IMG/VR virus record: IMGVR_UViG_3300046411_000702
Location: 1 to 50,057 of that record
Strand: one strand, 5' to 3'
Source of the DNA: a virus
Taxonomy: Duplodnaviria; Caudoviricetes
DNA: 50,057 nucleotides
Shown here: positions 1-50,057 of the stretch, one piece after another
How the letters are laid out: each line of letters opens with the position of its first letter
How positions within the stretch are numbered: the first letter of the stretch is position 1
Program-made: the position numbers and the translations under genes
Notes under the pieces: model-generated
Seen by the model: only the letters and a program-made list of their open reading frames with translations
Told to the model about the DNA's origin: nothing
Database searches by the model: none

Positions 1-29
1 AATTACTTCAATTAGTAATACATCAAGAA
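1..29. repeat. Terminal direct repeat, left copy (circular assembly overlap)
   Basis: aattacttcaattagtaatacatcaagaa is identical at 1-29 and 50029-50057; an ORF reads through the join. Confidence 0.95.
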
Positions 30-1261
30 ATCAAATTATGAAGATTATTAAAAAAGGGGCAGAGGAAGGTGATAATGCTAGAAAAATAGCTAGAGATGTA
101 CAATTATTTAGCAACAGTCCTATATCACGACAAAGAGCTAATATGATTGCAAGAACTGAAACGCATCAAGCTAGTGTATACGCAAACCATCAAGTTTCAA
201 TTGATCAAGAAGTTCCTGAGATGCAAAAACGTTGGATATCAACGAACGATGATAGAACAAGATCACATCATAGACAGTTGAACGGAAAGACTGTGAATAT
301 GAGTGAAGATTTTATTTTTAATGTTGGTTTAGCAGAGTATCGTATGTCACACCCTGCTGACCCAAGGGGTGGGGCAATCAACAATATAAATTGTAGATGT
401 GTTCTTGCTTACGTTGTTCCTGAAGATAGTATAGTTGAGCCAAATTATAGTCAGCCCAAACCTGTAATAGTTCCCCCTGCAAAAGTTAGTGAGGTTGATA
501 TTACAGACGTAGTCAAAGTAAAATTCAGAGGCAAGGACTTATCAAATGAATATAATGATTACTTCAAAGCAGGTCTAACACCATTACAAGCCATAGTTGT
601 AAGTAAACTTAGGAAACCAAACGCTATAGCAATAAAAGGTAAAGAGGGGTTTCATTCAACCTTAATAGGTCAAACAAGTGTAAACAGTACAATATTTGCA
701 AGAATAGACGAAGTGGGTAATAAGGTATTACACCATGAATATGGTCATCATATTGATTTTGTTTCTTCAACGAGTGGAAAAGAATACTGGTCATCAACTA
801 GTAATAAGTTTCGTAGTGCTTTTGAACAAGATAAGAAATTAAATAAGTTTGACATTGACCCCAATACAAGACGATTTATTCAAGGTGATGATAATGTTAA
901 GAATAAGCTTATAGAAATAAAAGAAAAAATATTTGATGAGGTTGAATATAAAGAACAAATAAAAAGAGGATATTTCAAAGGAAGTCAAAGGCTCAGAAAA
1001 AAATTAAAAGCTAAGATAAAAGGGGCTGAAGGAATATCTGATATTTATGATGCAATGACTAAAGGAGAGATGTATGCTCTTGGTTCTTGGGGGCATGGTA
1101 AATCTTACTATAGAAAAGAAAGAAACATGGATTTAAATGAAGTGTTTGCTAATATGTTTGAAGTCTACAATGAAAAACAAGGTTGGGAATATATATCAAA
1201 GAACTTTCCTAACACAGCTAGAGTCTTTGAAGAAAGGTTAAAAGAACTTGCTAATCTCTAA
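2..1261 (+). CDS. MuF/SPP1 gp7-like minor head protein, C-terminal part, with HExxH metallopeptidase extension
   Basis: RANMIARTE, KRWIST-D-RTR-H and INCRC are MuF motifs; later HHEYGHH and LNEVFANMFE. The frame is open from base 2 and continues from ATG 49673 (about 538 aa in total). Confidence 0.85.
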   Translation: MTSISNTSRNQIMKIIKKGAEEGDNARKIARDVQLFSNSPISRQRANMIARTETHQASVYANHQVSIDQEVPEMQKRWISTNDDRTRSHHRQLNGKTVNMSEDFIFNVGLAEYRMSHPADPRGGAINNINCRCVLAYVVPEDSIVEPNYSQPKPVIVPPAKVSEVDITDVVKVKFRGKDLSNEYNDYFKAGLTPLQAIVVSKLRKPNAIAIKGKEGFHSTLIGQTSVNSTIFARIDEVGNKVLHHEYGHHIDFVSSTSGKEYWSSTSNKFRSAFEQDKKLNKFDIDPNTRRFIQGDDNVKNKLIEIKEKIFDEVEYKEQIKRGYFKGSQRLRKKLKAKIKGAEGISDIYDAMTKGEMYALGSWGHGKSYYRKERNMDLNEVFANMFEVYNEKQGWEYISKNFPNTARVFEERLKELANL

Positions 1262-1448
1262 ACGAAAAGAAAGATTTGATAAATGTGAAACACTTGATGA
1301 TTATACCAAGCTTTATATAGATATATTTAAAGAAGAACCAGCAGTTAATGCCTCTAACTGGGGATTCCCACCTATTGATGATATTATTGATTCAATTATT
1401 ACTGGTAAAAAAATTAAGAAAGAACGTAAAAGAAAAGTAAGGTTATAG
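1248..1448 (+). CDS. Small protein, candidate immunity protein for the MuF extension
   Basis: 66 aa, TTG start overlapping the MuF 3' end; function inferred from position only. Confidence 0.5.
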   Translation: MLISKRKERFDKCETLDDYTKLYIDIFKEEPAVNASNWGFPPIDDIIDSIITGKKIKKERKRKVRL

Positions 1449-1467
1449 ACCCACACGATGGTGGGTC
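1448..1467. terminator. Hairpin between convergent transcription units
   Basis: GACCCAC-acgatg-GTGGGTC between the + stop at 1448 and the - stop at 1474. Confidence 0.6.
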
Positions 1468-3866: not shown

Positions 3867-3868
3867 CT

Positions 3869-5089
3869 ATGGAAAGCACGGAAGTGAAGTCTGCAGTAGA
3901 GGGATTGGGAAAAGCTTTTGAAGAATTTAAAGCTACAAACGATGCTAAACTAGCAGAACTAGAAAAAAAAGGTAGTGTTGACCCTGTAACAGAGGAAAAA
4001 CTATCTAAGATTGAAACTGAGCTTGATAGGTTAGAAGATATTAACCAACAACTCGTTCAACAAAAGAAAAGCCAAGAAACATTTGGAGAGAAGATTGAAA
4101 GATTAGAAAAAATCTCAAGTCGCCCATCTGTTGATGGTTCATCAGACCAAGTATCAGAGCAAAAGTCTGCATTCAATTCTTTTTTGAGAAAAGGAAAAGA
4201 GCAGATGGACGATATGGAAGTAAAAGCTTTATCAGTAGCTGATAATACTCAAGGTGGTTTTTTAGCCCCTGTTGAGTATGTCAACGAGCTTATAAAGACA
4301 GTTACTGAAATATCTCCTTTGAGAACAATAGCTAGAGTAAGGCAAACTACTTTGAAGTCAATTCAAATGCCTAGCAGAACAGCTACATTCTCAGCTCAAT
4401 GGGTATCAGCGACTGGCACAAGGTCAGAAACTACTGGTTACACAACTCAAATGGAAGAAATTCCAACTCATGAATATTATGCACAAGTTGATATAAATGA
4501 GCAATTACTTGAGGATAGTGTTTTCAATTTAGAAGCAGAGATGAATGAAGAATTTTCAACTCAGTTTGCTAAAGCAGAGGGAACAGCTTTTATTTCAGGT
4601 ACAAGCGTTGGTCAGCCAGAGGGTATCTTAACTAATGGTGATATTGGCACAACAAACTCAGGTTCAGGCACAGCATTAACTGCTGACGGATTATTAACAT
4701 TAATTCATAGCTTAAAAACTGAGTATGGCAGAAACGGAACTTTTATTTTCAATAGAACTACTTTAGGTGCTATTAGAAAACTTAAGGACTCTGCAGGTCA
4801 ATATGTGTTTCAAGCAGGAATGATGCTTACAAGTGGTGTTCCAAACACTATCTTGGGCTATCCTTACATTGAAATGCCAGATATGCCAGACGTTGCAGGA
4901 TCAGCAAAACCAGTTGCCTTTGGAGACTTTTCAAGAGGTTACATGGTTGTTGATAGAGTAGCTTTAAGTATATTAAGAGACCCTTTCACCCAAGCCACTT
5001 CAGGTAATGTAAGATATATTGCTAGAAGAAGGACTGGTGGTCAGGTAATCTTAGCTGAAGCTATCGTAACTCAAACAGTATCAGCTTAA
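3869..5089 (+). CDS. HK97-fold major capsid protein
   Basis: Coiled-coil delta domain, GGFLAP, KLKDSAGQY, ILGYP, FGDF, RDPF. Confidence 0.95.
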   Translation: MESTEVKSAVEGLGKAFEEFKATNDAKLAELEKKGSVDPVTEEKLSKIETELDRLEDINQQLVQQKKSQETFGEKIERLEKISSRPSVDGSSDQVSEQKSAFNSFLRKGKEQMDDMEVKALSVADNTQGGFLAPVEYVNELIKTVTEISPLRTIARVRQTTLKSIQMPSRTATFSAQWVSATGTRSETTGYTTQMEEIPTHEYYAQVDINEQLLEDSVFNLEAEMNEEFSTQFAKAEGTAFISGTSVGQPEGILTNGDIGTTNSGSGTALTADGLLTLIHSLKTEYGRNGTFIFNRTTLGAIRKLKDSAGQYVFQAGMMLTSGVPNTILGYPYIEMPDMPDVAGSAKPVAFGDFSRGYMVVDRVALSILRDPFTQATSGNVRYIARRRTGGQVILAEAIVTQTVSA

Positions 5090-5101
5090 GAGGAGATTGC
5101 T

Positions 5102-5566
5102 ATGAAAGATATGAGTAACACTATCGCAACTGCAGTTTCTATAAAGAACGCAGTCAAAACGTCAGCAGAAAATGGTACAGGGGTTGACCTTCAAGGTTAC
5201 GAAAGTGCCACAATAATCGCAGACGTTGGAGCAGAAGGGGATACACTTTCTTCATCTGTACACTTTGAATTATCACTTGAGCATTCTGATGACAACAGTT
5301 CGTTTTCAGATGTGGCTCAAGCAGATATTACTGATGGAACTATTTCATCTGGTGGTATTTGGTTGAAGCTTGATGGTACTGCAGGAGGTAATCCTGATAC
5401 CGCAGGTGAGATATTCAGAGTTGGATATGTAGGTGGAAAAAGATATGTTAGAGCAGTGCTTGCAAAAACAGGCTCACACTCTAATGGTACACCTATAGGA
5501 GTAATGGTTGTCAAAGGAAATGCTAGACATTCTGCTGATAACGCATTTACTGCTCACGCATCTTAA
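5102..5566 (+). CDS. Probable head decoration protein
   Basis: NGTGVDLQGY, HSDD, GYVGGKRYVR; directly after the capsid gene and before a terminator. Confidence 0.65.
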   Translation: MKDMSNTIATAVSIKNAVKTSAENGTGVDLQGYESATIIADVGAEGDTLSSSVHFELSLEHSDDNSSFSDVAQADITDGTISSGGIWLKLDGTAGGNPDTAGEIFRVGYVGGKRYVRAVLAKTGSHSNGTPIGVMVVKGNARHSADNAFTAHAS

Positions 5567-5570
5567 TGAT

Positions 5571-5595: not shown

Positions 5596-5608
5596 AAATG
5601 AGGTTTTA

Positions 5609-6757: not shown

Positions 6758-6760
6758 AAA

Positions 6761-8739: not shown

Positions 8740-9641
8740 TGCCTTTAAGTAGGATAAATGCACAATCACTAACAGATGCTTCAGTAGTAACTGCTGAGAT
8801 TGCTGATAATGCAGTAACGAGTGCAAAATTAACTTATCCTTTAACTGGATTTTCATCTACTGGTATTGATGACAATGCTGATGCTACAGCTATTACTATC
8901 ACAAGTGCTGAAAATGTTTTAATTGGTAAAACAAGTGCTGATAACACAACAGTAGGAGTAAGAATACAACCAGAAGGATTTGCCTCTTTTGCAAGAGATG
9001 GTAATTTTCCTTTATTATTAAATAGGAAATCTGATAATGGAACTATTCTTGATGTTCGTAAAGATGGTACTACTATAGGTCATATAGGTGTCCATGATGA
9101 TGATGGATTCTTTTTTACAAGAGGAGCAACCCAACAAGGAATAGTATTAAAAAACTCTTCTTTGATGCCTTGTCAATCAGATGGAAGTAATTCTGATGCT
9201 GACCAAGACTTAGGAATATCATCAGTAAGATGGAAAGACCTCTACCTATCAGGTGGTGCATTTATAGGTGGTACTGGTTCAGCTAATAAGCTAGACGATT
9301 ATGAAGAAGGAACTTGGACACCAAATTTTACTAATAAGAATAGTAGTGCAACTCAAGGGTCTTATACAAAAGTAGGAAATTTTGTTACTTGTACTTTTGA
9401 TCTTCAAGCTAATGGAACAAATACTGATGTAAATATAACTGGAGTGCCTTTTGCTATGTTAGTTGGTGCTGGTCAACGAGGTGGTGGACTTGCAACTTAT
9501 CAAAATAGAAATAGCACAGAAGTATGGACAGTAATTCCAGTTAGTTCATCTGCTATCAATCTTTATCATGGTGCAGCTTCAAGAACTCTTACTGCATCAG
9601 AAACTGCGATTGGTACTTTTTCTTTTTTTACAACGGCATAA
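8739..9641 (+). CDS. Fibre protein (paralogue of 9946-10902)
   Basis: IADNAVT repeats, GIDDNA, RWKDLYLS, LDDYEEGTWTP, YTKVG. Confidence 0.75.
   Translation: MPLSRINAQSLTDASVVTAEIADNAVTSAKLTYPLTGFSSTGIDDNADATAITITSAENVLIGKTSADNTTVGVRIQPEGFASFARDGNFPLLLNRKSDNGTILDVRKDGTTIGHIGVHDDDGFFFTRGATQQGIVLKNSSLMPCQSDGSNSDADQDLGISSVRWKDLYLSGGAFIGGTGSANKLDDYEEGTWTPNFTNKNSSATQGSYTKVGNFVTCTFDLQANGTNTDVNITGVPFAMLVGAGQRGGGLATYQNRNSTEVWTVIPVSSSAINLYHGAASRTLTASETAIGTFSFFTTA
9234..9310 (+). repeat. 77-bp imperfect direct repeat (second copy 10495-10571)
   Basis: aaagacctctacctatca...ggtggtactggttcagc...gacgattatgaagaagg is shared by the two fibre genes. Confidence 0.85.
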
Positions 9642-14448: not shown

Positions 14449-16410
14449 ATGGCATATTTAGGAAATACACCATCTGAAACATTTCATCAGGCAACTAGCC
14501 AAGTATTCAATGGCGATGGTAGTACAACTGCTTTTACTTTAGAAAAAAGAGTTAACAGAGCAGAGGAAATAGAAGTATTTGTAAATAATATTCAGCAACA
14601 ACCAACAGTTGCATACTCTGCCAATAATACTACTTTAACATTTACAGAAGCACCTGATAGTGCAACTGGTAATATCTATGTAGTTTATAGAATGTTTGCA
14701 CAACAAAACACATTCAATGCCTTACATGATTTTACAGATGCAGTAACTATGGCTAGTACGTTAGCCGTTACTGGCAATACTACAATGGCAGGTACTTTGG
14801 GGGTTACTGGAAATACAACAGTAACTGGCTCTGTAATCACATCAACTGGTTTTTCAGTTGGAAATACTGCTGTATTAGGTCAGGAAATAGATGTTTCAAG
14901 TGGAGATTTTACACTTGACGTAGCAGGGGATATAATCCTTGATGCTGATGGTGGAGATGTAAAAATTAATGATGGTGGTTCAGCAAGATTTCATATTCTT
15001 ACAAGTGCTACAGAAACACAGCTTTTCAATCAAGTACAAGATGCAGATATTGTTTTCAAAGGAGATGATGGTGGTTCAGCCATAACTGCACTTACTCTTG
15101 ATATGTCAGATGCAGGTTCTGCTTATTTTAATGGTAATATATATTTTGCTGAATATTTAACTCATGCAGGTGATACTGATACATATTTACAGTATACTAC
15201 AAATCAAATTGACCTTTTTGCAGGAAATAAAAGGGGAATAACTCTTACAGCTAATGAAGTTATTATTAATCAAAATGGTGTAGATTTAGACTTTAATGTT
15301 GAAACAGATAATGACACTAGTACACTTTTTGTTCAAGGTAGCTCAGATCGCGTGGGCATTGGGACTCCATCTCCTGATGATAGATTTCATGTAAAATTAT
15401 CTAGTGGTCAAAGAGTAGCTAGATTTGAAAGCAATGATAATACTTCAGCACACATAGCATTTAAAGCACCAAACACATCTTTGATGCCAACTGTAGGTGT
15501 AAAAGATGAGGTTTTATATTTCAGTACTGGAGATAGTTATGAAAGAGCAAGAATTTTAGGACCTAGTACTTCTCATAGTGGATTTTTCAAGATATCAGAT
15601 TCAGGAAGTTATCAGGGTAGTACTGGGGCTTTTCATGAGATTCGTTCTTCTAGTAGTAACCAATCAGGAGTTGTTATTGGTGCGTCACACGCAAGTTTTT
15701 CAGCTAATGTTATTTCAATAATTACTCAGAGAGCAAATAGTAGTAGTTTTCGTTATATTCAAGGCTTATCAAGCAATACTGGAGATACAGACTACAGCGT
15801 AAGAGGAGATGGCGAAGTCTTTGCTGATGGTTCTTTTAACTCAGGTGGTGCTGACTATGCTGAAATGTTTGAATGGAAAGATGGCAACACAAGTTCAGAA
15901 GATAGAGTAGGCAAGACAGTCGTTCTTGATGGAAATCAAATAAGGCTATCTACAAGTGATGATGCACAAGCAACTATTATAGGTGTTGTTTCTGCAAGAC
16001 CAGTAGTTCTTGGAGATGCACAAAGCGACAAATGGAAAGATAAATATGAAACAGACAGCTATGGCAGATATGTTTTTGAGGAATACACACAAACAGAATG
16101 GACAATAGAAACTGATGATGGTGCTAAAGAATTAAAGTCATATCAAACAGATATGATACCAAGTGACGTTACTGTTCCTGATGATGCAATAGTTACATCT
16201 AAAGATCAAAATGGTGATAATCTCAAAAGAAGAAAACTTAATTCATCATTTGATGCAAGTAAAACCTATATTCCTAGAGAAGATAGAAAAGAGTTTAGTG
16301 CCATAGGACTAGTTGGAAAACTTAGAGTCGCTGTTGGTCAAACTATAGGCGATAGATGGATTAAGATGAGAGAAATATCTGATACAGTACATGAATATTT
16401 AGTAAGATAA
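14449..16410 (+). CDS. Fibre with C-terminal peptidase G2-like autocleaving chaperone
   Basis: YLGN..GDGSTT.FTL N-terminus; GADYAEMFEW, IGVVS, GLVGKLRV. Confidence 0.8.
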   Translation: MAYLGNTPSETFHQATSQVFNGDGSTTAFTLEKRVNRAEEIEVFVNNIQQQPTVAYSANNTTLTFTEAPDSATGNIYVVYRMFAQQNTFNALHDFTDAVTMASTLAVTGNTTMAGTLGVTGNTTVTGSVITSTGFSVGNTAVLGQEIDVSSGDFTLDVAGDIILDADGGDVKINDGGSARFHILTSATETQLFNQVQDADIVFKGDDGGSAITALTLDMSDAGSAYFNGNIYFAEYLTHAGDTDTYLQYTTNQIDLFAGNKRGITLTANEVIINQNGVDLDFNVETDNDTSTLFVQGSSDRVGIGTPSPDDRFHVKLSSGQRVARFESNDNTSAHIAFKAPNTSLMPTVGVKDEVLYFSTGDSYERARILGPSTSHSGFFKISDSGSYQGSTGAFHEIRSSSSNQSGVVIGASHASFSANVISIITQRANSSSFRYIQGLSSNTGDTDYSVRGDGEVFADGSFNSGGADYAEMFEWKDGNTSSEDRVGKTVVLDGNQIRLSTSDDAQATIIGVVSARPVVLGDAQSDKWKDKYETDSYGRYVFEEYTQTEWTIETDDGAKELKSYQTDMIPSDVTVPDDAIVTSKDQNGDNLKRRKLNSSFDASKTYIPREDRKEFSAIGLVGKLRVAVGQTIGDRWIKMREISDTVHEYLVR

Positions 16411-28755: not shown

Positions 28756-29180
28756 AATTAGAAAGACTTACAGAACAGTTAAGATTCCATGAAGGTGTAG
28801 AACATAAGGTTTACAAAGACCATCTTGGCATAGAAACAATAGGTGTAGGCAGAAATCTTGTTGATAGAGGCTTATCAGATCATGAGATAAACGTTTTACT
28901 AGCAAATGATATTAATATTTGTGAAGAAGAACTTAATAAAAAAATGCCATGGTGGAAAGAATTAGACGAGGTTAGGCAGAGATGTTTAATAGATTTAGTT
29001 TTTAATCTTGGAATGCCTAGATTTTCTCAATTCGTGAAAACTATAAAGCACTTAAAAAATAATGAGTTTGAACAAGCTTCAAGTGAGTTACTTGACTCAA
29101 ACTATGCAAGACAAGTAGGGGCTAGGGCTAATCGTATAGCTGAAATGATAAGAACAGGGCAAGACAGCGAGGACTTTTAA
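28752..29180 (+). CDS. Endolysin, T4 lysozyme-like (GH24)
   Basis: HEG..Y.D.LG..TIGVGRN, FNLG, L.S.YA.QVG.RA. Confidence 0.9.
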   Translation: MKLERLTEQLRFHEGVEHKVYKDHLGIETIGVGRNLVDRGLSDHEINVLLANDINICEEELNKKMPWWKELDEVRQRCLIDLVFNLGMPRFSQFVKTIKHLKNNEFEQASSELLDSNYARQVGARANRIAEMIRTGQDSEDF

Positions 29181-40160: not shown

Positions 40161-41849
40161 ATGAATTTGAAAGAAAAACTTTTAGAGGAAGGGATAAGGG
40201 TCAACTCAAATTATGGTCAACAAAAGACTGTATGCCCTAAATGTTCACACACTAGAAAAAATAAAAAAGAGCCGTGTTTATCAGTTAATGTTGAGAATGA
40301 TATAGCCTTATGGCATTGTCATCATTGTGATTGGAAAGGTTCAGTATATGAAAATGTTGTAAAACCAACGTTTTATAAAGAAAAAAAGAATAATGTAGTT
40401 ACATTTTCAAAAGATAATGTTTTAGAAGATAATGCTTGTAGATGGTTAGCCTCAAGGGGCATATCAGAAAACACAGCAAATGAATTAAAAATATACAGCC
40501 ATAATGATAAAATATCGTTTCCTTATTTACTTGATGATAAAATAGTCAATGTAAAATATAGGGGCATAAGTGAAAAAACATTTCATCAACATAAAAATGC
40601 AGTCAAATGTTTATATAATATAGATAGTGTAAAAAAATTATGGTTCAGCGAAGAAAACAAACCTGATAAAAAACAAATCATATTTGTTGAGGGTGAGATT
40701 GATGTACTTACATTATATGAGTGTGGTCTAAAAAATGTAGTTAGTTTACCTGATGGTGCACCTAAAGAAGCTAAGTATGACGAAAATGATAAGAGGTTTA
40801 CTGCATTTGAGAATAGTGAGTGGATATTTGATGCAGATGAAGTGATAATAGCAACTGACCAAGATCAAGCAGGAAATGCATTAAAATTAGAACTGATTGA
40901 TAGGTTTGGTAAAGATATATGTAAAGTAGTTAACTTTCCTTTAAAAGATGCAAATGAAGTTTTAGTTAGTTACGATAAGAACACAGTTTTAAAATATATG
41001 TGTGAAGCTAAAGAGTTCCCTATTGAAGGCTTACATTCAGCATTTGATTATAAGCAAATATTACAAGATATGTATGATGGAAATACTCAAAAAGCTATAT
41101 CAACAGGATTTGAAAAGCTTGATGAAATATATAAAGTTATGCCATCAACATTTAATTTAGTAACAGGAATACCAAACCATGGGAAAAGTAATTTCCTTGA
41201 TCAAATTTTAATGAACCTTGCAGAAAATGAACATTGGAAATTTGCAGTTTATTCACCAGAACATTCAACAGCCAATCATATAAGAAGATTACTTGAAAAA
41301 AGATGTCGCAAACCATTTGACATAGGTGTTTATGAAAGAATTACAGATGAAGAAAAAAATGCAGGTATAGATTTTATTGATAATCATTTTAAATTTATTG
41401 AAAATACTCAAGAAATACCAACTATTGATTACATTTTAAGTAAGACAAAAATAGCAAAACTAAGGTACGGAATTGATGGGCTTATAATTGACCCATTCAA
41501 CCAAGTAAGTGCTGATAGAGAAAATAATAAGCGTGAAGATGAGCATATAAGGGATATAATAGCTAAATGTCAACAGTTTGCTAGAAATTATAATATAGTA
41601 GTATGGATGGTTGCACACCCTCATAAATTACATAGAAATGATAGTGGGGTAATACCTCCTCCAGATTTATATCAAGTTAGTGGCTCTGCACATTGGGCTA
41701 ATATGGCAGACGTAGGTCTTGTTGTGCATAGGGATTTTGAAGAAAACTCAACGAAAATTATTACAAGAAAGATAAGAGAGCAAGGTGTTTACGGACAGAT
41801 AGGACAAGCAGAATTTATTTTTAACTTTAGAACGAGGTGTTACCAATGA
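40161..41849 (+). CDS. Primase-helicase (T7 gp4/Twinkle-like)
   Basis: CPKC..CHHC zinc finger, TOPRIM EGEID / ATDQD, Walker A GIPNHGKS, IIDP, VAHP. Confidence 0.92.
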   Translation: MNLKEKLLEEGIRVNSNYGQQKTVCPKCSHTRKNKKEPCLSVNVENDIALWHCHHCDWKGSVYENVVKPTFYKEKKNNVVTFSKDNVLEDNACRWLASRGISENTANELKIYSHNDKISFPYLLDDKIVNVKYRGISEKTFHQHKNAVKCLYNIDSVKKLWFSEENKPDKKQIIFVEGEIDVLTLYECGLKNVVSLPDGAPKEAKYDENDKRFTAFENSEWIFDADEVIIATDQDQAGNALKLELIDRFGKDICKVVNFPLKDANEVLVSYDKNTVLKYMCEAKEFPIEGLHSAFDYKQILQDMYDGNTQKAISTGFEKLDEIYKVMPSTFNLVTGIPNHGKSNFLDQILMNLAENEHWKFAVYSPEHSTANHIRRLLEKRCRKPFDIGVYERITDEEKNAGIDFIDNHFKFIENTQEIPTIDYILSKTKIAKLRYGIDGLIIDPFNQVSADRENNKREDEHIRDIIAKCQQFARNYNIVVWMVAHPHKLHRNDSGVIPPPDLYQVSGSAHWANMADVGLVVHRDFEENSTKIITRKIREQGVYGQIGQAEFIFNFRTRCYQ

Positions 41850-42463
41850 TAGTAGAAATGTTAAATATTGATGATATTAAGCCATATCCATCAAACCCAA
41901 GGAAAATATCTAAAAAAGCTATAGAAATGGTAGGTAAGAGCATTCAAGAGTACGGATTTAGACAACCTATAGTCGTTGATAAAGATAATGTAATTATAAT
42001 AGGGCATACAAGATTTCAAGCCTCAAGACAACTTGGTCTTAAAGAAGTCCCATGTAATATAGCTGATTTACCTATTGAAAAAGCAAAAGCGTTAAGAATA
42101 GCTGATAACAGAATAAATGAGGAAACAGCATGGGACGATGCAAAACTAATTGAAGAATTAAATAGTTTACTTGAAGTAGATTACTTAATTGATAAATTAG
42201 GTTTCACACAAGAAGAACTTGATAGTTTATTCACAAAAGAAGACATATCTTTAGATGATGATAACGAAGACGATATTAATTATATTGATAATGATATGAA
42301 TGATGTTAAAATGGTACAACTATTCTATAACCCTGATGATGATAAGGTTTTTAGAGAAGGCTTAAATAATGTGATGGATAAATACAATATAACGAATATA
42401 TCTGATGCAGTTCTTAGGTGTGTAAAAAATGAAAACGATAAAATTAAATCCAGTAATAAATGA
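41846..42463 (+). CDS. ParB/sulfiredoxin-domain protein
   Basis: PY..NPR, GF.QPIVVD, GHTR, RIADN; ATGA coupling. Confidence 0.88.
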   Translation: MIVEMLNIDDIKPYPSNPRKISKKAIEMVGKSIQEYGFRQPIVVDKDNVIIIGHTRFQASRQLGLKEVPCNIADLPIEKAKALRIADNRINEETAWDDAKLIEELNSLLEVDYLIDKLGFTQEELDSLFTKEDISLDDDNEDDINYIDNDMNDVKMVQLFYNPDDDKVFREGLNNVMDKYNITNISDAVLRCVKNENDKIKSSNK

Positions 42464-43409
42464 TGAAGAAGCTAATAAACTTCAAGGTCAATTTATAGAT
42501 GAAAGTCTTGTTAAAATTGAAGTTAACGAAGATTTATGTGTTTTAAAAGAAGATGGTAGTTTATTAGCAGTTTTGAAAAAAAACGTTGTTCCAAAAGATA
42601 TTTTAGAAAAAGCTAGAGTCCCTTTTAGAAAAGCTTGTAAACAATCAAATAATAGAGGAATAGCATCAGGTGATATGTCTCAATTTTACAAAGTTGGTGA
42701 TAAGATTCAAGGGAGAACTATAGCTAAAATAGAAGGAGGAAGATATACAGCCCTTTTAAAAAATGGTAAACTTTCAACAACATCTTATGCTATGCCAGTT
42801 CATAGTTCAGTAATAGGTTATTCAGATAGATATCCAAGAATACCTTACTGTAGAACAACAGCTTATACTCAAAAATATTTTAAAGAATATGCAGAATGCT
42901 TGCCTTACATACATTGTGTAAATACATTTTTTAGCAAACATGCCCCAACTAAATATCATATTCAGAAGCAGTTAGCAGAGAATACTTCACCTGACTTTGT
43001 CATAAAAGATACTGCATTCACTACTGTAACAGTAAATAAAAACTTTAGAACAGCAGGGCATAAGGATAAAGGTGATTTAAAAGAAGGTTTTGGAAATTTA
43101 GGTGTTATTTCAAGAGGTCAGTATAACGGATGTATGACTGTTTTGCCTAAATATGGTGTAGGATTAAATATTAGGGACGGTGATATTGCTTTATTTGACG
43201 TACACGAAGTTCATGGAAATACAAAAGTAGAGGCAAAAAGCTATTATGAACGTATTTCAGTTGTATGTTATTATCGTGAAAAAATGATTTACTGTGGTAC
43301 TAAAGAATATGAATTGAATCGTGCCAAGACTGACACAAAGAAAGTTGCCTTAGACGAGGAAATACAAAAAGCAGATGAAATTAAATCAAAAATATTACAA
43401 GACAGCTAA
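42429..43409 (+). CDS. TET/JBP-family 2OG-Fe(II) dioxygenase
   Basis: T.FTT.TVN.NFRTA.HKD.GD (HxD), DVHEVHGN (distal His), RIS.V.Y.RE. Confidence 0.88.
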   Translation: MKTIKLNPVINDEEANKLQGQFIDESLVKIEVNEDLCVLKEDGSLLAVLKKNVVPKDILEKARVPFRKACKQSNNRGIASGDMSQFYKVGDKIQGRTIAKIEGGRYTALLKNGKLSTTSYAMPVHSSVIGYSDRYPRIPYCRTTAYTQKYFKEYAECLPYIHCVNTFFSKHAPTKYHIQKQLAENTSPDFVIKDTAFTTVTVNKNFRTAGHKDKGDLKEGFGNLGVISRGQYNGCMTVLPKYGVGLNIRDGDIALFDVHEVHGNTKVEAKSYYERISVVCYYREKMIYCGTKEYELNRAKTDTKKVALDEEIQKADEIKSKILQDS

Positions 43410-44133
43410 ATTATGTAAAAAATATAATTACATATTTTATAATAATTTTTCGTCAGAAGAAAATGTAAGCAAACATAAACAAAGTTATATACATTTTGTA
43501 AAAAACGAACAACAGCTTGTTTCAGCGAAATGTTTAGCTACTGAGTGGCTTATCAAAGATATAAAAGATAATAACTTAACTTTATTTGAATATTTTGCTG
43601 GGGCAGGGGTATCATCAATTATATTTAATAAAACTATGAATATAAACTATCATGAAGCAACTGACTTTAATCAAGATTGTGTGAATCAATTAAAAAAGAT
43701 GAAAATTATCCATAAAGCATATAAATCTGATTTCAGAAAAATTATTCTAAAAGAAAATAAATTTGATATAAAAGTTTTAGATTTTCCATACTCAAGTATT
43801 TTACAAACTACTAGAGGTGATTGGAATATGTTTGGATACGCTTTTAGCTCTGAACCAAAATATTTGATATGGACTGATACAGCTAGAACTTATCCTTTAT
43901 CAATTCATAAAAAAAAATATGAAAAGATTTTAAATGATTCACTTAATGATTATGAAGATTATTTTGAAAAATACTCAAATCTTTTGTTTCAAAATTATAG
44001 ATACAGAATAAATAAGGTTGCATGGAGAGGTAAAAACGCAAATTATATTTTGGCATCAAAACAAAATACAAATATAAGTCATAAAATGTTTGAACTTAAT
44101 GAAAAAAATGAGGGCTTTCAATGGATAACATAG
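43375..44133 (+). CDS. SAM-dependent methyltransferase-like protein
   Basis: Motif I EYFAGAG, acidic ATDF, DPPY-like LDFPY; no PC dipeptide of C5 MTases. Confidence 0.6.
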   Translation: MKLNQKYYKTAKLCKKYNYIFYNNFSSEENVSKHKQSYIHFVKNEQQLVSAKCLATEWLIKDIKDNNLTLFEYFAGAGVSSIIFNKTMNINYHEATDFNQDCVNQLKKMKIIHKAYKSDFRKIILKENKFDIKVLDFPYSSILQTTRGDWNMFGYAFSSEPKYLIWTDTARTYPLSIHKKKYEKILNDSLNDYEDYFEKYSNLLFQNYRYRINKVAWRGKNANYILASKQNTNISHKMFELNEKNEGFQWIT

Positions 44134-45242
44134 GAAGATATTGTGCTATTCATGATATATATGAAGATTCAAATTTAAAAAAAGGATATGACTTTCGTTT
44201 ACCACAGTACAGAAGAGAAGTATTTCTACGTTTATATGAATTTAATTTAAAGTATAATGCTCATGCAGGGTTTGTATATGGTGCTTTACCTTATTTGAAC
44301 AATAAATTTAATCTAGATAATGAGCAAAAACTTTGGTTAGGTTTTATTAATGGATGTACGCAAAATATTGTAACATCATGGATAGTCTTTGAACTGTTTC
44401 CTAATATTAAAGAATTTAATGTAGATACATTTAATAAATGGTGGAATATAAATTATAAAAAATTTATGGTTGGCAAAGGTTGGGATTTAGATAGAAGATA
44501 TTTTAAAATAGGGAAAACTGGTTTCCCACAGTGTATTGATTCTTATATAAAACAAGTTGTCAAGTTTGGTAATCAAACAAATATGTTTAATGCTATATGC
44601 AATAAAAATGATAAATATCAAAACTTTGAGAATTTATGGACATTTATAAGAGAGAACTTTTTGAGTTTTGGAAGATTATCAACCTTTTCGTATACAGAGT
44701 TTTTGAGGATTCAAGGTTTAAATATTGATTGTAACAATTTATTCTTAGAAGACATATCAGGAAGTAAGTCACATAGGAACGGATTATGTAAGGTTCTTGG
44801 TCGTGATGACTTAGATTGGTGGAAAGATAAAGTTAAATATTCACCAGAGATAATATCTTGGTTGAAAGACGAAGCAAATATGCTTTTTAATGAAATGAAA
44901 GCACGCAACAACCATGAACATTTAAGCTTTTACACCTTTGAAACAGCTTTATGTAACTACAAATCAATGCATAGACCCAAACGAAGATACCCTAATGTAT
45001 ATAATGACATGTTTTTTAATCGTATTAAATACGCAGAATCAGTATGGGAAAAGCCATTTGATATATTTTGGCAGATGAGGAAAGAATTATTACCAAGCGA
45101 ATTAAGGCTTGAAAATAATAAAAAAGATGTTGGCTTACATCACTTAAAACAAAATCATTATCTTAACACTGGAGAAGTTATAATGATGGATAAGGAGTGG
45201 GAGTGCTTTCAAAACTCTTATAATGATTATGTTAATGGCTAA
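44121..45242 (+). CDS. aGPT-Pplase2 / amino acid:DNA transferase
   Basis: DRRY, FGRLSTFSY.E.L, S.SHRNGL, FETALCNYK. Confidence 0.82.
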   Translation: MDNIGRYCAIHDIYEDSNLKKGYDFRLPQYRREVFLRLYEFNLKYNAHAGFVYGALPYLNNKFNLDNEQKLWLGFINGCTQNIVTSWIVFELFPNIKEFNVDTFNKWWNINYKKFMVGKGWDLDRRYFKIGKTGFPQCIDSYIKQVVKFGNQTNMFNAICNKNDKYQNFENLWTFIRENFLSFGRLSTFSYTEFLRIQGLNIDCNNLFLEDISGSKSHRNGLCKVLGRDDLDWWKDKVKYSPEIISWLKDEANMLFNEMKARNNHEHLSFYTFETALCNYKSMHRPKRRYPNVYNDMFFNRIKYAESVWEKPFDIFWQMRKELLPSELRLENNKKDVGLHHLKQNHYLNTGEVIMMDKEWECFQNSYNDYVNG

Positions 45243-45777
45243 AATAGTAGCTATAGGTGGCATACCTGCATCAGGAAAAACAACTATTATAAAAAAGTTC
45301 TTTTTTAAATACCCAAAGTTTAAAACATTTAAATGGAGACTTATATCAGGGCATTTCATAAAAGAATTAAATTTATTTATATTAGGAAGATATGATGGGA
45401 ACGATACATTCTTAGGCACAGATAAGCTATCAATGTCAGTACAACCAGATTACAAACGTTTTATAAATAAATATAAAGATGTAAATATTCTATTTGAGGG
45501 AGATAGACTATTTAATATAAAATCATTAGATGAATCAAAGCTTACACATAACCTAAAAGTATATATTATTGAGTCATACGATACTGATAAAAGACATAAA
45601 GATAGGAATGATAACCAATCAGAAAAGTTTATCAAAGGTAGATACACTAAAATAAAAAATATCAAAACTTATCTAAATAATGAATTTACTATATTAAACA
45701 ACGACTTATATGAAGATATACAGACTAATTTTGATACTTTATTAAGTGAATTTGATAATACTTTGATAAATAAATGA
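45235..45777 (+). CDS. P-loop kinase, 5-hmdU DNA kinase-like
   Basis: GGIPASGKTT, LG.Y..F.GTD.LSM.VQ, FEGDRL, R...R...Q...F..GR.TK. Confidence 0.82.
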   Translation: MAKIVAIGGIPASGKTTIIKKFFFKYPKFKTFKWRLISGHFIKELNLFILGRYDGNDTFLGTDKLSMSVQPDYKRFINKYKDVNILFEGDRLFNIKSLDESKLTHNLKVYIIESYDTDKRHKDRNDNQSEKFIKGRYTKIKNIKTYLNNEFTILNNDLYEDIQTNFDTLLSEFDNTLINK

Positions 45778-47574: not shown

Positions 47575-49610
47575 TGGGTATTTTTGATAACATAAAAAAT
47601 GTATTTACATCTACAACCTACGAAACAAAGCAATCACCAATGGTAATGATGCAAAACGTAGGATATGGATATTCTAGGAAAGATAAATATGAAGATTATT
47701 CAAAAGAAGGTTATCAAGAAAACGCTATAGTTTATAGGTGTATAAACGAAATATCAAATGGTGCTTCTTCTATACCATTTAAAATATTTGATGGTGATAT
47801 TGAACTTGATGAACACCCATTAAAAGACTTGTTGATGCGACCTAACCCTATGATGGCAGGAGTAGAATACTTTCAAGCATTATACTCCCACCTTTTATTA
47901 AGTGGTAATTCATACGCTACAAAAACAGAAATAAACAATCAGCCAACAGAACTTCATCTTTTAAGACCAGATAGAATGAGAATAGTTGCAAGTAAAACTA
48001 ATATTCCTAGAGCATATGAATATGTATTGAATGGTAAAGTCGTTCAAAGCTATGATATAGATGAGGAAACAGGTAGAAGCGATGTCAAGCATTTTAAAAT
48101 GTGGGCACCCATGGACGATTATTATGGTTGTTCTCCTATGATGCCTGCTTCAGTAAACATTGACCAACATAACGCTAGTGCAAAACATAATTATAATCTT
48201 TTAAATAATGGAGCAAGACCAAGTGGTGCTATAGTATTTAAGCCCAAAGATGAGTCAGGAATGAGTATTCAATTAAGTGAAAGTCAAAGACAACAACTTA
48301 TGTCAGACTTAGAAATGAGGTTTACAGGCAATCATAATGCAGGTAGAGCCATGTTACTTGAAGGCGATTTTGATTGGAAAGAGATGGGTTTAGCCCCAAA
48401 AGATATGGATTTTATTGAATTAAAAAATATGGCTTCAAGAGAAATAGCATTATGTTTTGGTGTTCCTAGTCAATTAGTGGGTGTTCCAGATAATCAAACA
48501 TATAACAATGTAGCTGAGGCTAGACTTGCATTATATGAGGAAACTATAATTCCATTAGCGAAAAGACTTGAAAGCGATTTAAATGAATGGTTAGCACCCT
48601 CATTCAATGAAAATGTAAGAATTCAATATGATATAGACTCAATACCTGCGATGGCAGAAAGACGTAAAAGAATATACGAAAACGTAGTGCAAGCTGTAAG
48701 AGAAGGCATTATAAGTAGAAACGAAGCAAGAGATAGACTAGGATATGAGCCAGTAGATGGTGGAGATGAAGTCTATATAAGTGCTAATTTATTTCCTCTT
48801 GGCTCTCCAAGTATAAGTGATGAAGAACAACCATCAGAAAAACAAGCAAGGGAGCTTTATCAAGAGGAAGAAGATACATGGGAGATAGATGATGAAAGCA
48901 AAGCAGAATCAGACATTGATACTCAACCTACTGAAGCTATGGCAAACGAAGCTAAAAGAGGTCTTGACTGGCGTAAAGAATACAATCGTGGAGGCACGGA
49001 AGTGGGTGTCGCAAGGGCTGTTCAGTTGGTTAATAGGGAGAACCTATCTCATAGAACGATTAAGAGAATGCACTCTTTTTTCTCAAGACACGAAGTTGAC
49101 AAGCAAGCTGAAGGTTTTGGAAAGGGAGAGGAAGGCTATCCGTCAGCAGGAAGAATTGCGTGGGCACTCTGGGGAGGTGACTCAGGGCAATCGTGGGCGA
49201 AAAGGAAAACAAGCGAAATCAATCGTGAAGAAGAAGAAAAAAGGGAAATAGAGCCATTAGCTACTGTAGATACATTAATTGATGACATTAAAGTATCAAT
49301 TAGTGCAAAAGTAAAAGAAGGGCTAAAAAATAAAGTTAAAGAACATAATGATAAACACGGAGATAAAAAAGGAAAACGTGTTACCCAAAGAATGTTAGAG
49401 GCAGTATTCAGAAGAGGGGTTGGTGCTTATAATACTAATCCACAATCAGTTAGACCAAGCGTGAGAGCAAGTGGTGGAAGTGATAGATGGGCTTATGCTC
49501 GTGTAAATGCTTTTTTATACGCTGTAAGGTCAGGTAAATACAGAGGAGGAAAGTTTGACAGAGACTTATTACCATCAGGGCATCCTCTCAAATCTTCAAA
49601 AAAAGACTAG
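47574..49610 (+). CDS. HK97-family portal protein with about 270-aa C-terminal extension
   Basis: VYRC, RPNP, NGARPSG, FGVP..G, NEAR..LG; extra domains after about residue 410. Confidence 0.92.
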   Translation: MGIFDNIKNVFTSTTYETKQSPMVMMQNVGYGYSRKDKYEDYSKEGYQENAIVYRCINEISNGASSIPFKIFDGDIELDEHPLKDLLMRPNPMMAGVEYFQALYSHLLLSGNSYATKTEINNQPTELHLLRPDRMRIVASKTNIPRAYEYVLNGKVVQSYDIDEETGRSDVKHFKMWAPMDDYYGCSPMMPASVNIDQHNASAKHNYNLLNNGARPSGAIVFKPKDESGMSIQLSESQRQQLMSDLEMRFTGNHNAGRAMLLEGDFDWKEMGLAPKDMDFIELKNMASREIALCFGVPSQLVGVPDNQTYNNVAEARLALYEETIIPLAKRLESDLNEWLAPSFNENVRIQYDIDSIPAMAERRKRIYENVVQAVREGIISRNEARDRLGYEPVDGGDEVYISANLFPLGSPSISDEEQPSEKQARELYQEEEDTWEIDDESKAESDIDTQPTEAMANEAKRGLDWRKEYNRGGTEVGVARAVQLVNRENLSHRTIKRMHSFFSRHEVDKQAEGFGKGEEGYPSAGRIAWALWGGDSGQSWAKRKTSEINREEEEKREIEPLATVDTLIDDIKVSISAKVKEGLKNKVKEHNDKHGDKKGKRVTQRMLEAVFRRGVGAYNTNPQSVRPSVRASGGSDRWAYARVNAFLYAVRSGKYRGGKFDRDLLPSGHPLKSSKKD

Positions 49611-49672
49611 GTTGAATCATACCTGAACTGTTTGTTTCGTTTCTCTGAGGGCTTCTGAGGAGGTTTTATTTC

Positions 49673-50057
49673 ATGGAATTATTGATAATACAGCGAAAAG
49701 CGAATGGAAGACTTGTTTCGCCAAGAAAAGAGCTTATTGAACAAACAAGAATAAGATCAAGACTTGAAAGTAAATTTTATACTAAATTATTGAAAATATT
49801 TATTCTTATAGGAGACAAAGTATCTGATGATATTTTACAAGGTCAGATAAATCCTAAATCATTAGAAAGAATAGAGCCTCTTATAGGTGATGAGCTAATT
49901 AAACATTACAGAGAAGTAATGCAAATATTTACTGAAAGAAGCTTATCACTTTTTACAAACCTTAAAAGAAGACAAAGAACATTTGAGGAATATGTTCAAA
50001 GCTACATAAGAGAAGTTGGTGGAATGAAAATTACTTCAATTAGTAATACATCAAGAA
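49673..50057 (+). CDS. MuF minor head protein, N-terminal part (continues at base 30)
   Basis: GGAGG SD, ATG 49673, open frame to the window end and in frame with 38-1261. Confidence 0.85.
   Translation, partial: MELLIIQRKANGRLVSPRKELIEQTRIRSRLESKFYTKLLKIFILIGDKVSDDILQGQINPKSLERIEPLIGDELIKHYREVMQIFTERSLSLFTNLKRRQRTFEEYVQSYIREVGGMKITSISNTSR
50029..50057. repeat. Terminal direct repeat, right copy
   Basis: Identical to bases 1-29. Confidence 0.95.

What the first reader, a model, noticed from the sequence alone, without database searches (positions are those of the whole stretch)
1..50057. Genome-wide purge of YCGR and several other restriction-type sites
Seen: reading the several hundred CG dinucleotides by eye I found no TCGA, TCGG, CCGA or CCGG (YCGR) and no GCGC, while ACGA, ACGT, TCGT, GCGA and ACGG are common. 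I also found no CCNGG, no RGATCY among roughly 50 GATC sites, one GGCC (27789) and one GCNGC (9573). GATC, AGCT, GTAC, TGCA, CTAG and GANTC are retained. Known: these are HhaI, ScrFI, XhoII, HaeIII and Fnu4HI-type sites; YCGR covers TaqI and HpaII sites and is the context in which E. coli McrA recognises 5mC. Loss of the non-palindromic TCGG/CCGA points to one degenerate YCGR specificity. Inference: this is a footprint of host restriction or methylation, and may mark the sites that the phage's own base modification cannot shield.
Basis: partly seen in the sequence, partly recalled or inferred. Interest (0 to 1): 0.8.

Follow-up and report, generated by a model that had tools for sequence, protein, structure and literature searches.

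The report
Marine phage stripped of restriction sites
A complete 50-kb marine phage genome has lost a dozen short restriction-type DNA words so thoroughly that its proteins almost never contain Ala-Ala or Pro-Gly, an extreme case of a known way of escaping host restriction enzymes.

Summary
Against codon-aware shuffles, TCGA (0 vs 53), TCGG/CCGA (0 vs 56), CCGG, GCGC, GGCC, CCGC, CCNGG, GCNGC and RGATCY are purged, while ACGT, ACGA, GCGA, AGCT and TGCA are normal.

I add ACCG, CCCG, GGATC and CGATC. The purge reaches the proteins: Ala-Ala 1 vs 66 expected, Pro-Gly 0 vs 31. The only GGCC, GCNGC and GGNCC sites left are Trp-Pro, Ala-Ala and Gly-Pro codon pairs.

The window is a whole marine siphophage. 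Its relatives show a mosaic of such purges: CCNGG and RGATCY are gone in 9 of 9 complete genomes, the other sites by lineage. Cultured pelagiphage HTVC019P shows nearly the same set.

Best reading: selection by many separate restriction-type host nucleases. YCGR is a union of separate losses, not one specificity. TCGA and TCGG are purged independently in relatives.

The "modification operon" is a ParB-dependent thymine dioxygenase pathway. It does not explain the purge: relatives without it are purged alike. Host and enzymes remain unidentified.

The parts
1..50057 (.). Whole phage genome (IMG/VR record with direct terminal repeats). It is purged of TCGA, TCGG/CCGA, CCGG, GCGC, GGCC, CGCG, CCGC/GCGG, CCCG/CGGG, ACCG/CGGT, CCNGG, GCNGC, RGATCY, GGATC and CGATC. 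GGNCC, GGATG, GCTGG, CAGCTG and TCTAGA are strongly reduced.
27788..27793 (+). The only GGCC (27789). It reads TGG CCA = Trp-Pro, which no synonymous change can remove.
9573..9578 (+). The only GCNGC. It reads GCA GCT = the single Ala-Ala dipeptide of the proteome.
15349..15352 (+). The only CGCG (CGC GTG, Arg-Val).
5400..5403 (+). The only CCGC on the + strand. The three GCGG lie at 5750, 7511 and 19709.
41837..42463 (+). ParB N-terminal domain protein, 208 aa, overlapping the start of the dioxygenase gene. Presumed activator of the dioxygenase.
   Evidence: PF02195, 3.1e-11. A ParB relative lies next to the dioxygenase in 72 of 82 loci. PMC13229309.
42429..43409 (+). Tet/JBP-type 5-methylpyrimidine dioxygenase (5mYOX), 326 aa. 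Predicted thymine dioxygenase.
   Evidence: PF12851, 4.9e-25, cut-off 34.9 bits, score 88.1. 49% identical to the gene beside ParB in pelagiphage HTVC112P.
43375..44133 (+). 252-aa protein with a class I SAM-dependent methyltransferase fold. Substrate unknown.
   Evidence: pLDDT 68.8; 76 PDB matches at E <= 0.001, all those listed methyltransferase or Rossmann folds, TM about 0.35-0.43. No Pfam match.
44121..45242 (+). 373-aa all-helical protein. Its only meaningful structural match is the 5-phosphomethyl-dU glycinyltransferase gp46 of phage PaMx11 (an amino acid:DNA transferase).
   Evidence: pLDDT 81.3, pTM 0.84; 8z2m E 3e-3, prob 1.00, TM 0.41/0.51; the next fold has E 0.8
45223..45777 (+). 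184-aa P-loop protein (Walker A GGxPAVGKTT), probably the 5-hmdU DNA kinase.
   Evidence: PF18751 in 8 of 12 relatives, best 4.2e-6; the window's own copy 0.0043, below cut-off
28752..29180 (+). Phage lysozyme, which shows that the host is a bacterium with a peptidoglycan wall.
   Evidence: PF00959, 4e-11
3869..5089 (+). Major capsid protein, used to find the phage family.

Best explanation
The genome has been swept clean of the recognition words of many different sequence-specific host nucleases of the restriction type: Type II and IIS-like specificities of 4 to 6 bases.

How it would work. A phage that carries no site cannot be cut, whichever strain it enters and whether or not its DNA was methylated in the previous host. 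Each mutation that removes a site raises the chance of surviving entry. Over long exposure to a host population holding many such systems the sites go to zero, first at synonymous positions and then by amino-acid replacement (Ala-Ala to Ala-Ser or Ser-Ala, loss of Pro-Gly).

The purged set is a sum of at least about ten independent specificities, acquired at different depths of the family tree: CCNGG, RGATCY and CCGG early; GGCC, GCGC, GCNGC and CCGC in some lineages; TCGA and TCGG/CCGA in this one.

The phage has no recognisable DNA methyltransferase. It relies on avoidance plus a thymine hypermodification pathway.

Shown: the purge, its depth and its mosaic among relatives. Inferred: that restriction enzymes are the agent, and that the host is a marine bacterium, probably an alphaproteobacterium.
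For: 1. Specific words are absent and their neighbours normal under three nulls. CCCC/GGGG (105 vs 97.7) and GCCC/GGGC (94 vs 75.8) are normal, so G+C-only words as a class are not avoided.

2. Selection acts on DNA words, not on codons. xTC, xCC and xGC codons are used 5-9% of the time elsewhere but 0 of 476, 0 of 271, 0 of 482, 0 of 304 and 0 of 235 times where they would make TCGA, TCGG, CCGA, CCGG or GCGC.

3. Protein-level cost.
- Ala-Ala 1 vs 66.1, Pro-Gly 0 vs 30.7, Gly-Pro 10 vs 30.7.
- All 10 GGNCC are in-frame Gly-Pro, the one GGCC is Trp-Pro, and the one GCNGC is Ala-Ala.
- Where relatives G005 and G007 have Ala-Ala in aligned proteins (70 and 80 cases) the window has none, mostly AS or SA.

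4. Mosaic among relatives.
- 9 of 9 complete genomes: CCNGG 0-1 vs 32-96 and RGATCY 0-3 vs 35-47. CCGG is 0-1 in 8 of 9.
- GATC 0-1 vs 127-139 only in G001 and G002. GCGC is 0 in the window, G001, G006 and G008.
- Pro-Gly 0-1 vs 27-41 in all 9. Ala-Ala is normal in G005 (118/105) and G007 (125/105).
- Among 75 loci of at least 9 kb: CCNGG purged in 55 of 68 testable, RGATCY in 50 of 75. ACGA, GCGA, AGCT, TGCA, CTAG, TTAA and AATT are purged in 0 of 75. One family member (L076) shows no purge at all, so the null is calibrated.

5. Cultured marine phages show the same kind of pattern. Pelagiphage HTVC019P: CCGG 0/15, CCNGG 0/31, RGATCY 0/30, GGNCC 0/33, GGCC 0/23, GCGC 0/23, GATC 0/96, GANTC 6/102.

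6. No DNA methyltransferase of three main families in six frames.

7. Literature.
- Site avoidance is an established anti-restriction strategy (PMC6286503, passages).
- CCNGG, GGWCC and GGHCC are among the commonest methylated motifs of marine viral MAGs (PMC8919816, passages). So these specificities are in play in the sea.
- GANTC depletion occurs in about half of 33 pelagiphages (PMC9516812, section 12).

8. The sequence is real. Pieces with no differences lie in contigs of 4 other runs from 4 studies.
Against: No host is identified and no restriction enzyme or methylome was examined. The link from word to enzyme rests on recalled enzyme names (TaqI, HpaII, HhaI, HaeIII, ScrFI, Fnu4HI, XhoII, AciI, AlwI), not on a database call.

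Some purged words are non-palindromic tetramers for which I know no enzyme: TCGG/CCGA, ACCG/CGGT, CCCG/CGGG.

If the host is SAR11-like, published surveys report R-M systems as rare or absent there (PMC9516812 and bioRxiv 10.1101/2022.09.19.508504, passages). That fits badly with a dozen specificities.

The near-universal loss of CCNGG and RGATCY, in phages of 26-50% G+C and in phages of hosts from two phyla, is wider than one host's R-M repertoire would predict.

My gene calls are crude (72 longest ORFs, 95% coding).
Confidence: 0.75

Rival explanations
1. Complement to the phage's own modification. The ParB-dependent dioxygenase pathway hypermodifies thymine in some contexts and so shields T-containing sites. 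Only sites without T, or with T in an unmodified context such as TC, had to be purged.
For: The operon is of the thymine-directed class (PMC13229309 sections 5, 8, 12).

Most purged words have no A/T (CCGG, GGCC, GCGC, CGCG, CCGC, CCNGG, GCNGC). The purged T-containing ones have T before C (TCGA, TCGG, GATC types), whereas TGCA, CATG, GTAC, CTAG and TTAA (T before G or A) are kept. The one ParB-dependent enzyme tested in print preferred NTG, then NTA (PMC13229309 section 8).

The low-G+C relatives G001 and G002 lack the operon and purge GATC completely, while the window keeps 51.
Against: 0 of 10 relatives' records carry the dioxygenase, yet G+C-only sites are purged there just as deeply.

For 15 MCP-family loci (taken as the no-operon group; absence of the operon was checked for only 6 of them) against 32 dioxygenase loci, all at G+C <= 40%: GATC differs weakly (median log2 O/E -1.17 vs -0.63, p 0.057), GANTC, ACGT, GTAC and TCGA do not differ, and CTNAG goes the wrong way.

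GANTC has T before C and is kept. Dioxygenase-bearing loci L100 and L103 purge GATC. The specificity of this enzyme is unknown.
Confidence: 0.15
2. One degenerate YCGR specificity, for instance a McrA-like enzyme that reads modified cytosine in YCGR, explains the loss of TCGA, TCGG, CCGA and CCGG.
For: All four YCGR words are 0 in the window against 122 expected together. The closest short relative, L002 (6.3 kb), also has none.
Against: The three classes are purged independently in relatives. CCGC, CCCG and ACCG are purged too, and 48 of 52 CCG survive only as CCGT, so the rule is wider than YCGR. There is no cytosine methyltransferase in the genome, and the dioxygenase is of the thymine class.
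Confidence: 0.04
3. Mutational decay. The words are methylated at cytosine (by host enzymes) and lost by 5mC deamination, without selection.
For: Single-step transition products are somewhat enriched: GTGC/GCAC 230 vs 171, TTGA/TCAA 903 vs 724, GGCT/AGCC 186 vs 147.
Against: Decay reaches an equilibrium, not zero out of 50-120 expected. It cannot remove conserved Ala-Ala and Pro-Gly against protein-level selection. CTGG/CCAG, the product expected from CCGG and CCWGG, is depleted (160 vs 212). Enriched neighbours are expected under selection as well.
Confidence: 0.03
4. Self-avoidance. The phage family encodes nucleases that cut these words in host DNA, and must lack them itself.
For: The core set (CCNGG, RGATCY, CCGG) is shared across the family regardless of G+C. 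A PD-(D/E)XK nuclease gene lies at 38145-38891.
Against: The nuclease sits beside a Sak-type annealing protein, the usual recombination pair. A dozen specificities cannot come from one or two genes. The same core is depleted in unrelated cultured phages. The variable part of the purge differs between close relatives.
Confidence: 0.03
5. Assembly or sequencing artefact at modified motifs.
For: None specific; it was considered because the record is a metagenome assembly.
Against: Frames are intact (95% coding). Identical pieces occur in contigs of 4 other runs from 4 studies, and the stretch is held by 23 rows of 17 studies. The same patterns occur in cultured, separately sequenced phages.
Confidence: 0.01

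Closest known systems
Restriction-site avoidance in phage genomes (surveyed in PMC6286503; the classical cases of Sharp 1986 and the GATC-free Staphylococcus phage K are recalled, not read here)
   Same: Short, mostly palindromic words are under-represented, differing with host lineage. Mechanism: fewer sites, more escape from Type II restriction.
   Different: The number of words taken to zero in one 50-kb genome (8 tetranucleotide classes at O/E <= 0.1, plus 5- and 6-mers). Removal at amino-acid-changing positions, so that Ala-Ala and Pro-Gly vanish from the proteome. Host and enzymes unknown. The survey paper contains neither 'amino acid' nor 'codon'.
GANTC depletion in pelagiphages (PMC9516812, section 12 and discussion passages)
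   Same: Marine phages whose clades differ by depletion of one methylation or restriction word, in hosts where no R-M system was found.
   Different: That work reports GANTC only. Here GANTC is mildly reduced (85 vs 116-136) and the purge concerns other words. My counts show that HTVC019P lacks CCGG, CCNGG, RGATCY, GGNCC, GGCC, GCGC and GATC as well.
E. coli McrA (recognition Y5mCGR; recalled, as in the finding)
   Same: The four YCGR words are all absent.
   Different: McrA needs methylated cytosine. No cytosine methyltransferase is encoded, and the YCGR words behave as separate targets in relatives.
ParB-dependent phage thymine dioxygenase (5mYOX, Clade C1) hypermodification pathways (PMC13229309)
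   Same: A ParB N-domain gene sits directly upstream of a Tet/JBP dioxygenase, with no neighbouring C5-methyltransferase. It is followed by a P-loop kinase and a protein with the fold of an amino acid:DNA transferase.
   Different: An extra SAM-methyltransferase-fold gene lies between them. Activity, product and sequence preference are untested. I could not see the paper's supplementary lists, which may already include this IMG/VR record.

Membership tests
Restriction-site avoidance footprint | Specific short words far below a composition- and codon-aware expectation, with neighbouring words normal | tested here: met
Restriction-site avoidance footprint | The avoided set varies between related phages (lineage- or host-specific) | tested here: met
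Restriction-site avoidance footprint | The avoided words equal the specificities of known restriction enzymes | tested here: inconclusive
   No enzyme database on hand. Names are recalled. CCNGG and RGATCY appear as m5C Type II motifs in a table of PMC11033074, and CCNGG and GGWCC as methylated motifs of marine viruses in PMC8919816. TCGG/CCGA, ACCG and CCCG have no enzyme known to me.
Restriction-site avoidance footprint | The host carries the cognate restriction-modification systems | not testable with these tools
   Host unknown. The two MAG contigs with a related capsid gene are 2.5 and 4.7 kb. About 100 kb and 200 kb sampled from those MAGs show only mild depletion (RGATCY 36/98 and 87/242).
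McrA-type target (Y5mCGR) | Phage DNA carries 5-methylcytosine in CpG | tested here: not met
   No PF00145 match in six frames. The dioxygenase is of the ParB-linked thymine class (PMC13229309).
McrA-type target (Y5mCGR) | YCGR behaves as one unit | tested here: not met
   TCGA, TCGG and CCGG are purged independently in relatives.
ParB-dependent 5mYOX thymine hypermodification pathway | Tet/JBP dioxygenase domain | tested here: met
   PF12851, 88.1 bits against a cut-off of 34.9
ParB-dependent 5mYOX thymine hypermodification pathway | [quoted passage not shown] | tested here: met
   PF02195, 43.6 bits against a cut-off of 26.3, in the gene overlapping the dioxygenase start. Conserved in 72 of 82 loci.
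ParB-dependent 5mYOX thymine hypermodification pathway | No neighbouring C5-methyltransferase | tested here: met
ParB-dependent 5mYOX thymine hypermodification pathway | Linked thymidine-hypermodification enzymes (P-loop kinase, amino acid:DNA transferase) | tested here: inconclusive
   Kinase: below the Pfam cut-off in the window, but 8 of 12 relatives match PF18751. Transferase: fold match only, E 3e-3, TM 0.41/0.51.
ParB-dependent 5mYOX thymine hypermodification pathway | Oxidation of thymine in DNA | not testable with these tools
   Needs enzyme assay or nucleoside analysis of virion DNA.

The most novel reading that the evidence does not exclude
The shared core purge is CCNGG, RGATCY, CCGG and GGNCC/GGCC. 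It is seen in this family at 32-50% G+C, in dioxygenase-bearing phages at 26-36% G+C, in cultured pelagiphages and in a flavobacterial phage. It would be the imprint of widespread sequence-specific defences in abundant, streamlined marine bacteria that are reported to lack R-M systems. These defences would be strong and old enough to ban a dipeptide (Pro-Gly) from whole phage proteomes.

The words would then point to defence systems not yet recognised in those hosts. Phage genomes could be read as a catalogue of the specificities at work in the sea.
Probability: 0.25. Interest if true: 0.75.

Novelty: new member of a known kind. Interest (0 to 1): 0.55.

Why it matters
Restriction avoidance is usually described as a modest under-representation of one or a few sites. 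Here it is complete for about a dozen words. It constrains which neighbouring amino acids the proteins may have, and it is shared as a mosaic across a large family of uncultured marine phages and some cultured pelagiphages.

This gives three things:
1. A clean natural example of DNA-level defence pressure reshaping protein sequence.
2. A sequence-only read-out of which nuclease specificities marine phages meet. That bears on the open question of how SAR11-type bacteria, said to have almost no R-M systems, resist phages.
3. A practical host or lineage marker for uncultured phages.

It also shows that a thymine-hypermodification operon and deep site avoidance coexist in one genome.

Tried and rejected
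- Nucleotide search of the phage collection with 6.4 kb found nothing. No tRNA genes.
- Host by related capsid genes in genomes: only 2 small contigs (2.5 and 4.7 kb), in an alphaproteobacterial and a Poseidoniales MAG. These are too small to trust as binned. Sampled stretches of those MAGs show mild depletion only, and the lysozyme argues against an archaeal host.
- Host by protein similarity gives only a lean towards marine Alphaproteobacteria: capsid 46% to a Rhizobium phage; portal C-terminal part and tail proteins nearest Roseobacter CRP phages and pelagiphages at 25-56%.
- Do natural variants avoid creating purged sites? 0 of 40 listed variants do. Only one or two would be expected by my rough guess, which was not computed, so the test has no power.
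- Does the dioxygenase operon go with retention of T-containing sites? No consistent signal. The loci are related, so the p-values are not independent.
- All-G+C words as a class: rejected, since CCCC and GCCC are normal.
- Literature. Searches for dipeptide-level avoidance, for marine or pelagiphage palindrome avoidance and for HTVC019P with restriction sites found nothing beyond the GANTC report (PMC9516812), which came up in the SAR11 search. Most subscription journals are not searched.
- Complex prediction, the search of protein representatives, the search for homologous proteins and the protein atlas were not used.

Full report
**What the window is.** The 50,057-base window is a whole IMG/VR virus record with direct terminal repeats, rated 100% complete.
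- It encodes portal, head protease, HK97-type capsid, tape measure, tail fibres, T7-gp4-like primase-helicase and large terminase. It also has a phage lysozyme and a Sak annealing protein with a PD-(D/E)XK nuclease. It is a siphophage of a bacterium.
- G+C is 33.5% and CpG is at 0.40 of expectation.
- The stretch 3000-12000 is held by 23 rows of 17 studies of seawater and viral metagenomes. Contigs of four other runs from four studies carry pieces with no differences.
- No cultured phage is close in DNA. The capsid is 46% identical to that of a Rhizobium phage. The portal C-terminal part and the tail proteins are nearest to Roseobacter CRP phages and pelagiphages.

**The observation.** I tested them three ways.
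- An order-2 Markov model on both strands gives TCGA 0 vs 46.6, GGCC 1 vs 35.1, GCGC 0 vs 19.2 and GATC 51 vs 157.
- 300 shuffles of synonymous codons keep every protein and the codon usage. Purged: YCGR 0 vs 122.3 (minimum 99), TCGA 0 vs 52.7, TCGG/CCGA 0 vs 56.0, CCGG 0 vs 13.7, GCGC 0 vs 24.6, GGCC 1 vs 24.0, CCGC/GCGG 4 vs 44.1, RGATCY 0 vs 33.2. Normal: ACGT 85 vs 83.2, ACGC 95 vs 93.5, ACGA 214 vs 176.7, GCGA 107 vs 76.8, AGCT 190 vs 206.7, TGCA 241 vs 245.5.
- 200 permutations of whole codons within genes also free the amino-acid order. They give the same picture and add ACCG/CGGT 5 vs 86.4 and CCCG/CGGG 0 vs 32.0. A further 60 such permutations give CCNGG 0 vs 39 and GCNGC 1 vs 75.

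Eight of 136 tetranucleotide classes have O/E <= 0.1. No class does in any of the 200 permuted genomes. CCCC/GGGG and GCCC/GGGC are normal, so this is not a general dislike of G+C runs.

**Selection on DNA words.** At codon junctions, codons ending in TC make up 8.6% of Ile/Phe/Val/Leu codons elsewhere but 0 of 476 before GA and 0 of 271 before GG. Codons ending in CC are 0 of 482 before GA and 0 of 304 before GG. Codons ending in GC are 0 of 235 before GC. The control xAC before GA is unchanged, 15.7% against 16.0%.

- 48 of the 52 CCG/CGG are CCGT/ACGG.
- GATC survives almost only with T before it on one strand: AGATCA/TGATCT 27, TGATCA 16, GGATCA/TGATCC 6, and 2 others.
- GGATC is 6 vs 50, CGATC 2 vs 18, GGATG 11 vs 46, GCTGG 12 vs 49, CAGCTG 1 vs 16 and TCTAGA 1 vs 12.

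**The purge reaches the proteins.** GCNGC in frame is Ala-Ala, CCNGG is Pro-Gly and GGNCC is Gly-Pro.
- In 15,766 residues there is 1 Ala-Ala (66.1 expected from composition), 0 Pro-Gly (30.7) and 10 Gly-Pro (30.7). These are the first, second and fourth most depleted of all dipeptides.
- The single GCNGC is that Ala-Ala, the single GGCC is a Trp-Pro (TGG CCA), and all 10 GGNCC are in-frame Gly-Pro. Every survivor of these three words sits where no synonymous change could remove it.
- In 30-33 aligned protein pairs, where relatives G005 and G007 have Ala-Ala (70 and 80 cases) the window never does. It mostly has Ala-Ser or Ser-Ala.

**Relatives.** The capsid protein finds 304 related stretches in IMG/VR, of which the best 80 were kept (64-77% identity, G+C 33-54%). 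I fetched eight near-complete genomes (42-51 kb).
- With the codon-permutation null, CCNGG is 0-1 vs 32-96 and RGATCY 0-3 vs 35-47 in all nine genomes. CCGG is 0-1 in eight. GGNCC is reduced in all.
- By contrast GATC is 0-1 vs 127-139 only in G001 and G002. GCGC is 0 in four genomes and GGCC 0-1 in five. GCNGC is 0-1 only in the window and G001. TCGA and TCGG/CCGA are purged only in the window.
- Pro-Gly is 0-1 vs 27-41 in all nine. Ala-Ala is normal in G005 and G007.
- Over the 75 loci of at least 9 kb, out of 160 fetched, CCNGG is purged (O/E <= 0.1) in 55 of 68 testable, RGATCY in 50 of 75, CCGG in 33 of 43 and GGCC in 26 of 65. Seven control words are purged in 0 of 75. One family member (L076, 19 kb, 50% G+C) shows no purge, which calibrates the null.
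- TCGG is purged without TCGA in L035 and L063, and TCGA without TCGG in L088, L102, L105 and L151. YCGR is therefore a union of separate losses.

**Cultured marine phages.**
- Pelagiphage HTVC019P has CCGG 0/15, CCNGG 0/31, RGATCY 0/30, GGNCC 0/33, GGCC 0/23, GCGC 0/23, CGCG 0/14, GATC 0/96 and GANTC 6/102.
- HTVC010P lacks CCGG, GGCC and ACGG/CCGT (0/40), and has GCGC 1/12, but keeps CCNGG (30/33).
- Prochlorococcus phage P-SSP7 is depleted mainly in GGCC (6/51).
- HTVC112P and the flavobacterial phage P12024L are partly depleted in the core words.
- In print I found only GANTC depletion in about half of 33 pelagiphages, with the remark that SAR11 MAGs lacked R-M systems (PMC9516812, section 12 and passages).
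- CCNGG, GGWCC and GGHCC are among the most frequent methylated motifs of marine viral MAGs (PMC8919816, passages).

**The 'modification operon'.** Genes 41837-45777 encode:
- a ParB N-domain protein;
- a Tet/JBP dioxygenase (PF12851, 4.9e-25);
- a 252-aa protein with a SAM-methyltransferase fold;
- a 373-aa helical protein whose only real structural match is the 5-phosphomethyl-dU glycinyltransferase of phage PaMx11 (E 3e-3, prob 1.00);
- a P-loop protein of the Ploopntkinase3 kind.

ParB lies beside the dioxygenase in 72 of 82 loci examined. This is the architecture of the ParB-dependent thymine dioxygenases described in PMC13229309 (abstract and sections 5, 8, 12 read). The expected product is a hypermodified thymine, not a modified cytosine or guanine. 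No C5, N6/N4 or Dam-type DNA methyltransferase is found in six frames.

**Does the operon explain which sites are purged?** The idea is attractive. Most purged words have no T, and the purged T-containing ones have T before C. The comparisons do not bear it out.
- 0 of 10 relatives' records carry the dioxygenase (8 of them at least 93% complete), and they are purged alike.
- Between 15 capsid-family loci, taken as the no-operon group (absence of the operon was checked for only 6 of them), and 32 dioxygenase loci at G+C <= 40% there is no consistent shift in T-containing sites.

I keep it as a minor rival.

**Verdict.** The restriction-footprint reading is the best explanation (0.75), though host and enzymes are not shown. 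The single-YCGR, McrA and shielding parts are not supported.

The kind is known. The degree, the protein-level effect and the family-wide mosaic are the points of interest. So is the tension with reports that SAR11-type hosts have few R-M systems.

The supplementary files of PMC13229309 and the other papers were closed. They may hold this record or the relevant enzyme preferences.

Noticed in passing
L212 (NC_020483, Pelagibacter phage HTVC019P), whole record: A cultured pelagiphage lacks CCGG, CCNGG, RGATCY, GGNCC, GGCC, GCGC, CGCG and GATC entirely (0 vs 14-96 expected) and has GANTC 6 vs 102. The passages and the one section I read of the paper on pelagiphage motif bias (PMC9516812) report only GANTC.
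   Followed up: partly
L211 (NC_020481, Pelagibacter phage HTVC010P): A different purge set in another pelagiphage: ACGG/CCGT 0 vs 40, ACGT 3 vs 38, GGCC 0 vs 13, CCGG 0 vs 8, while CCNGG (30 vs 33) and GATC (131 vs 111) are untouched.
   Followed up: no
L102, L105, L085, L090, L134 (IMG/VR loci with the dioxygenase): CCGG is frequent (30 in 14 kb, 20 in 10.8 kb, 13-15 in about 5 kb at 31-34% G+C), while TCGA is 0 in all five and GCGC and GGCC are also 0. This is the reverse of most relatives. A phage-borne CCGG methylase could explain it.
   Followed up: no
L076 (IMG/VR, 19.4 kb, 50% G+C): A member of the same capsid family with no depleted word at all (CCNGG 34, RGATCY 25, CCGG 57). It served as an internal control, but its biology (host without such defences, or full modification?) is open.
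   Followed up: no
window 8200-16400: Contigs of other runs skip or replace parts of the tail-fibre genes (joints such as 9332-10626, 13161-14064, 9258-9644) and depth rises several-fold there. This looks like modular, repeat-sharing fibre genes that vary between strains.
   Followed up: no
window 47574-49610 (portal), residues 451-677: The C-terminal third of the portal ORF is 56% identical to a stretch of Roseobacter CRP-8xx phages annotated 'major capsid protein | portal protein', while the N-terminal part matches other portals at about 38-42%. The portal gene may carry a fused extra domain.
   Followed up: no
L191-L210 (stretches of MAGs G011 and G012): Both cellular MAGs are themselves depleted in RGATCY (36 vs 98; 87 vs 242) and in GATC. 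The Poseidoniales MAG is also depleted in AGCT (226 vs 584).
   Followed up: no
L188 (HTVC112P) 6973-9195: A cultured pelagiphage carries the ParB plus dioxygenase pair (annotated 'DnaJ/SNF2 repair protein'), followed by an FkbM-type methyltransferase. It would be a culturable model for the operon of the window.
   Followed up: partly
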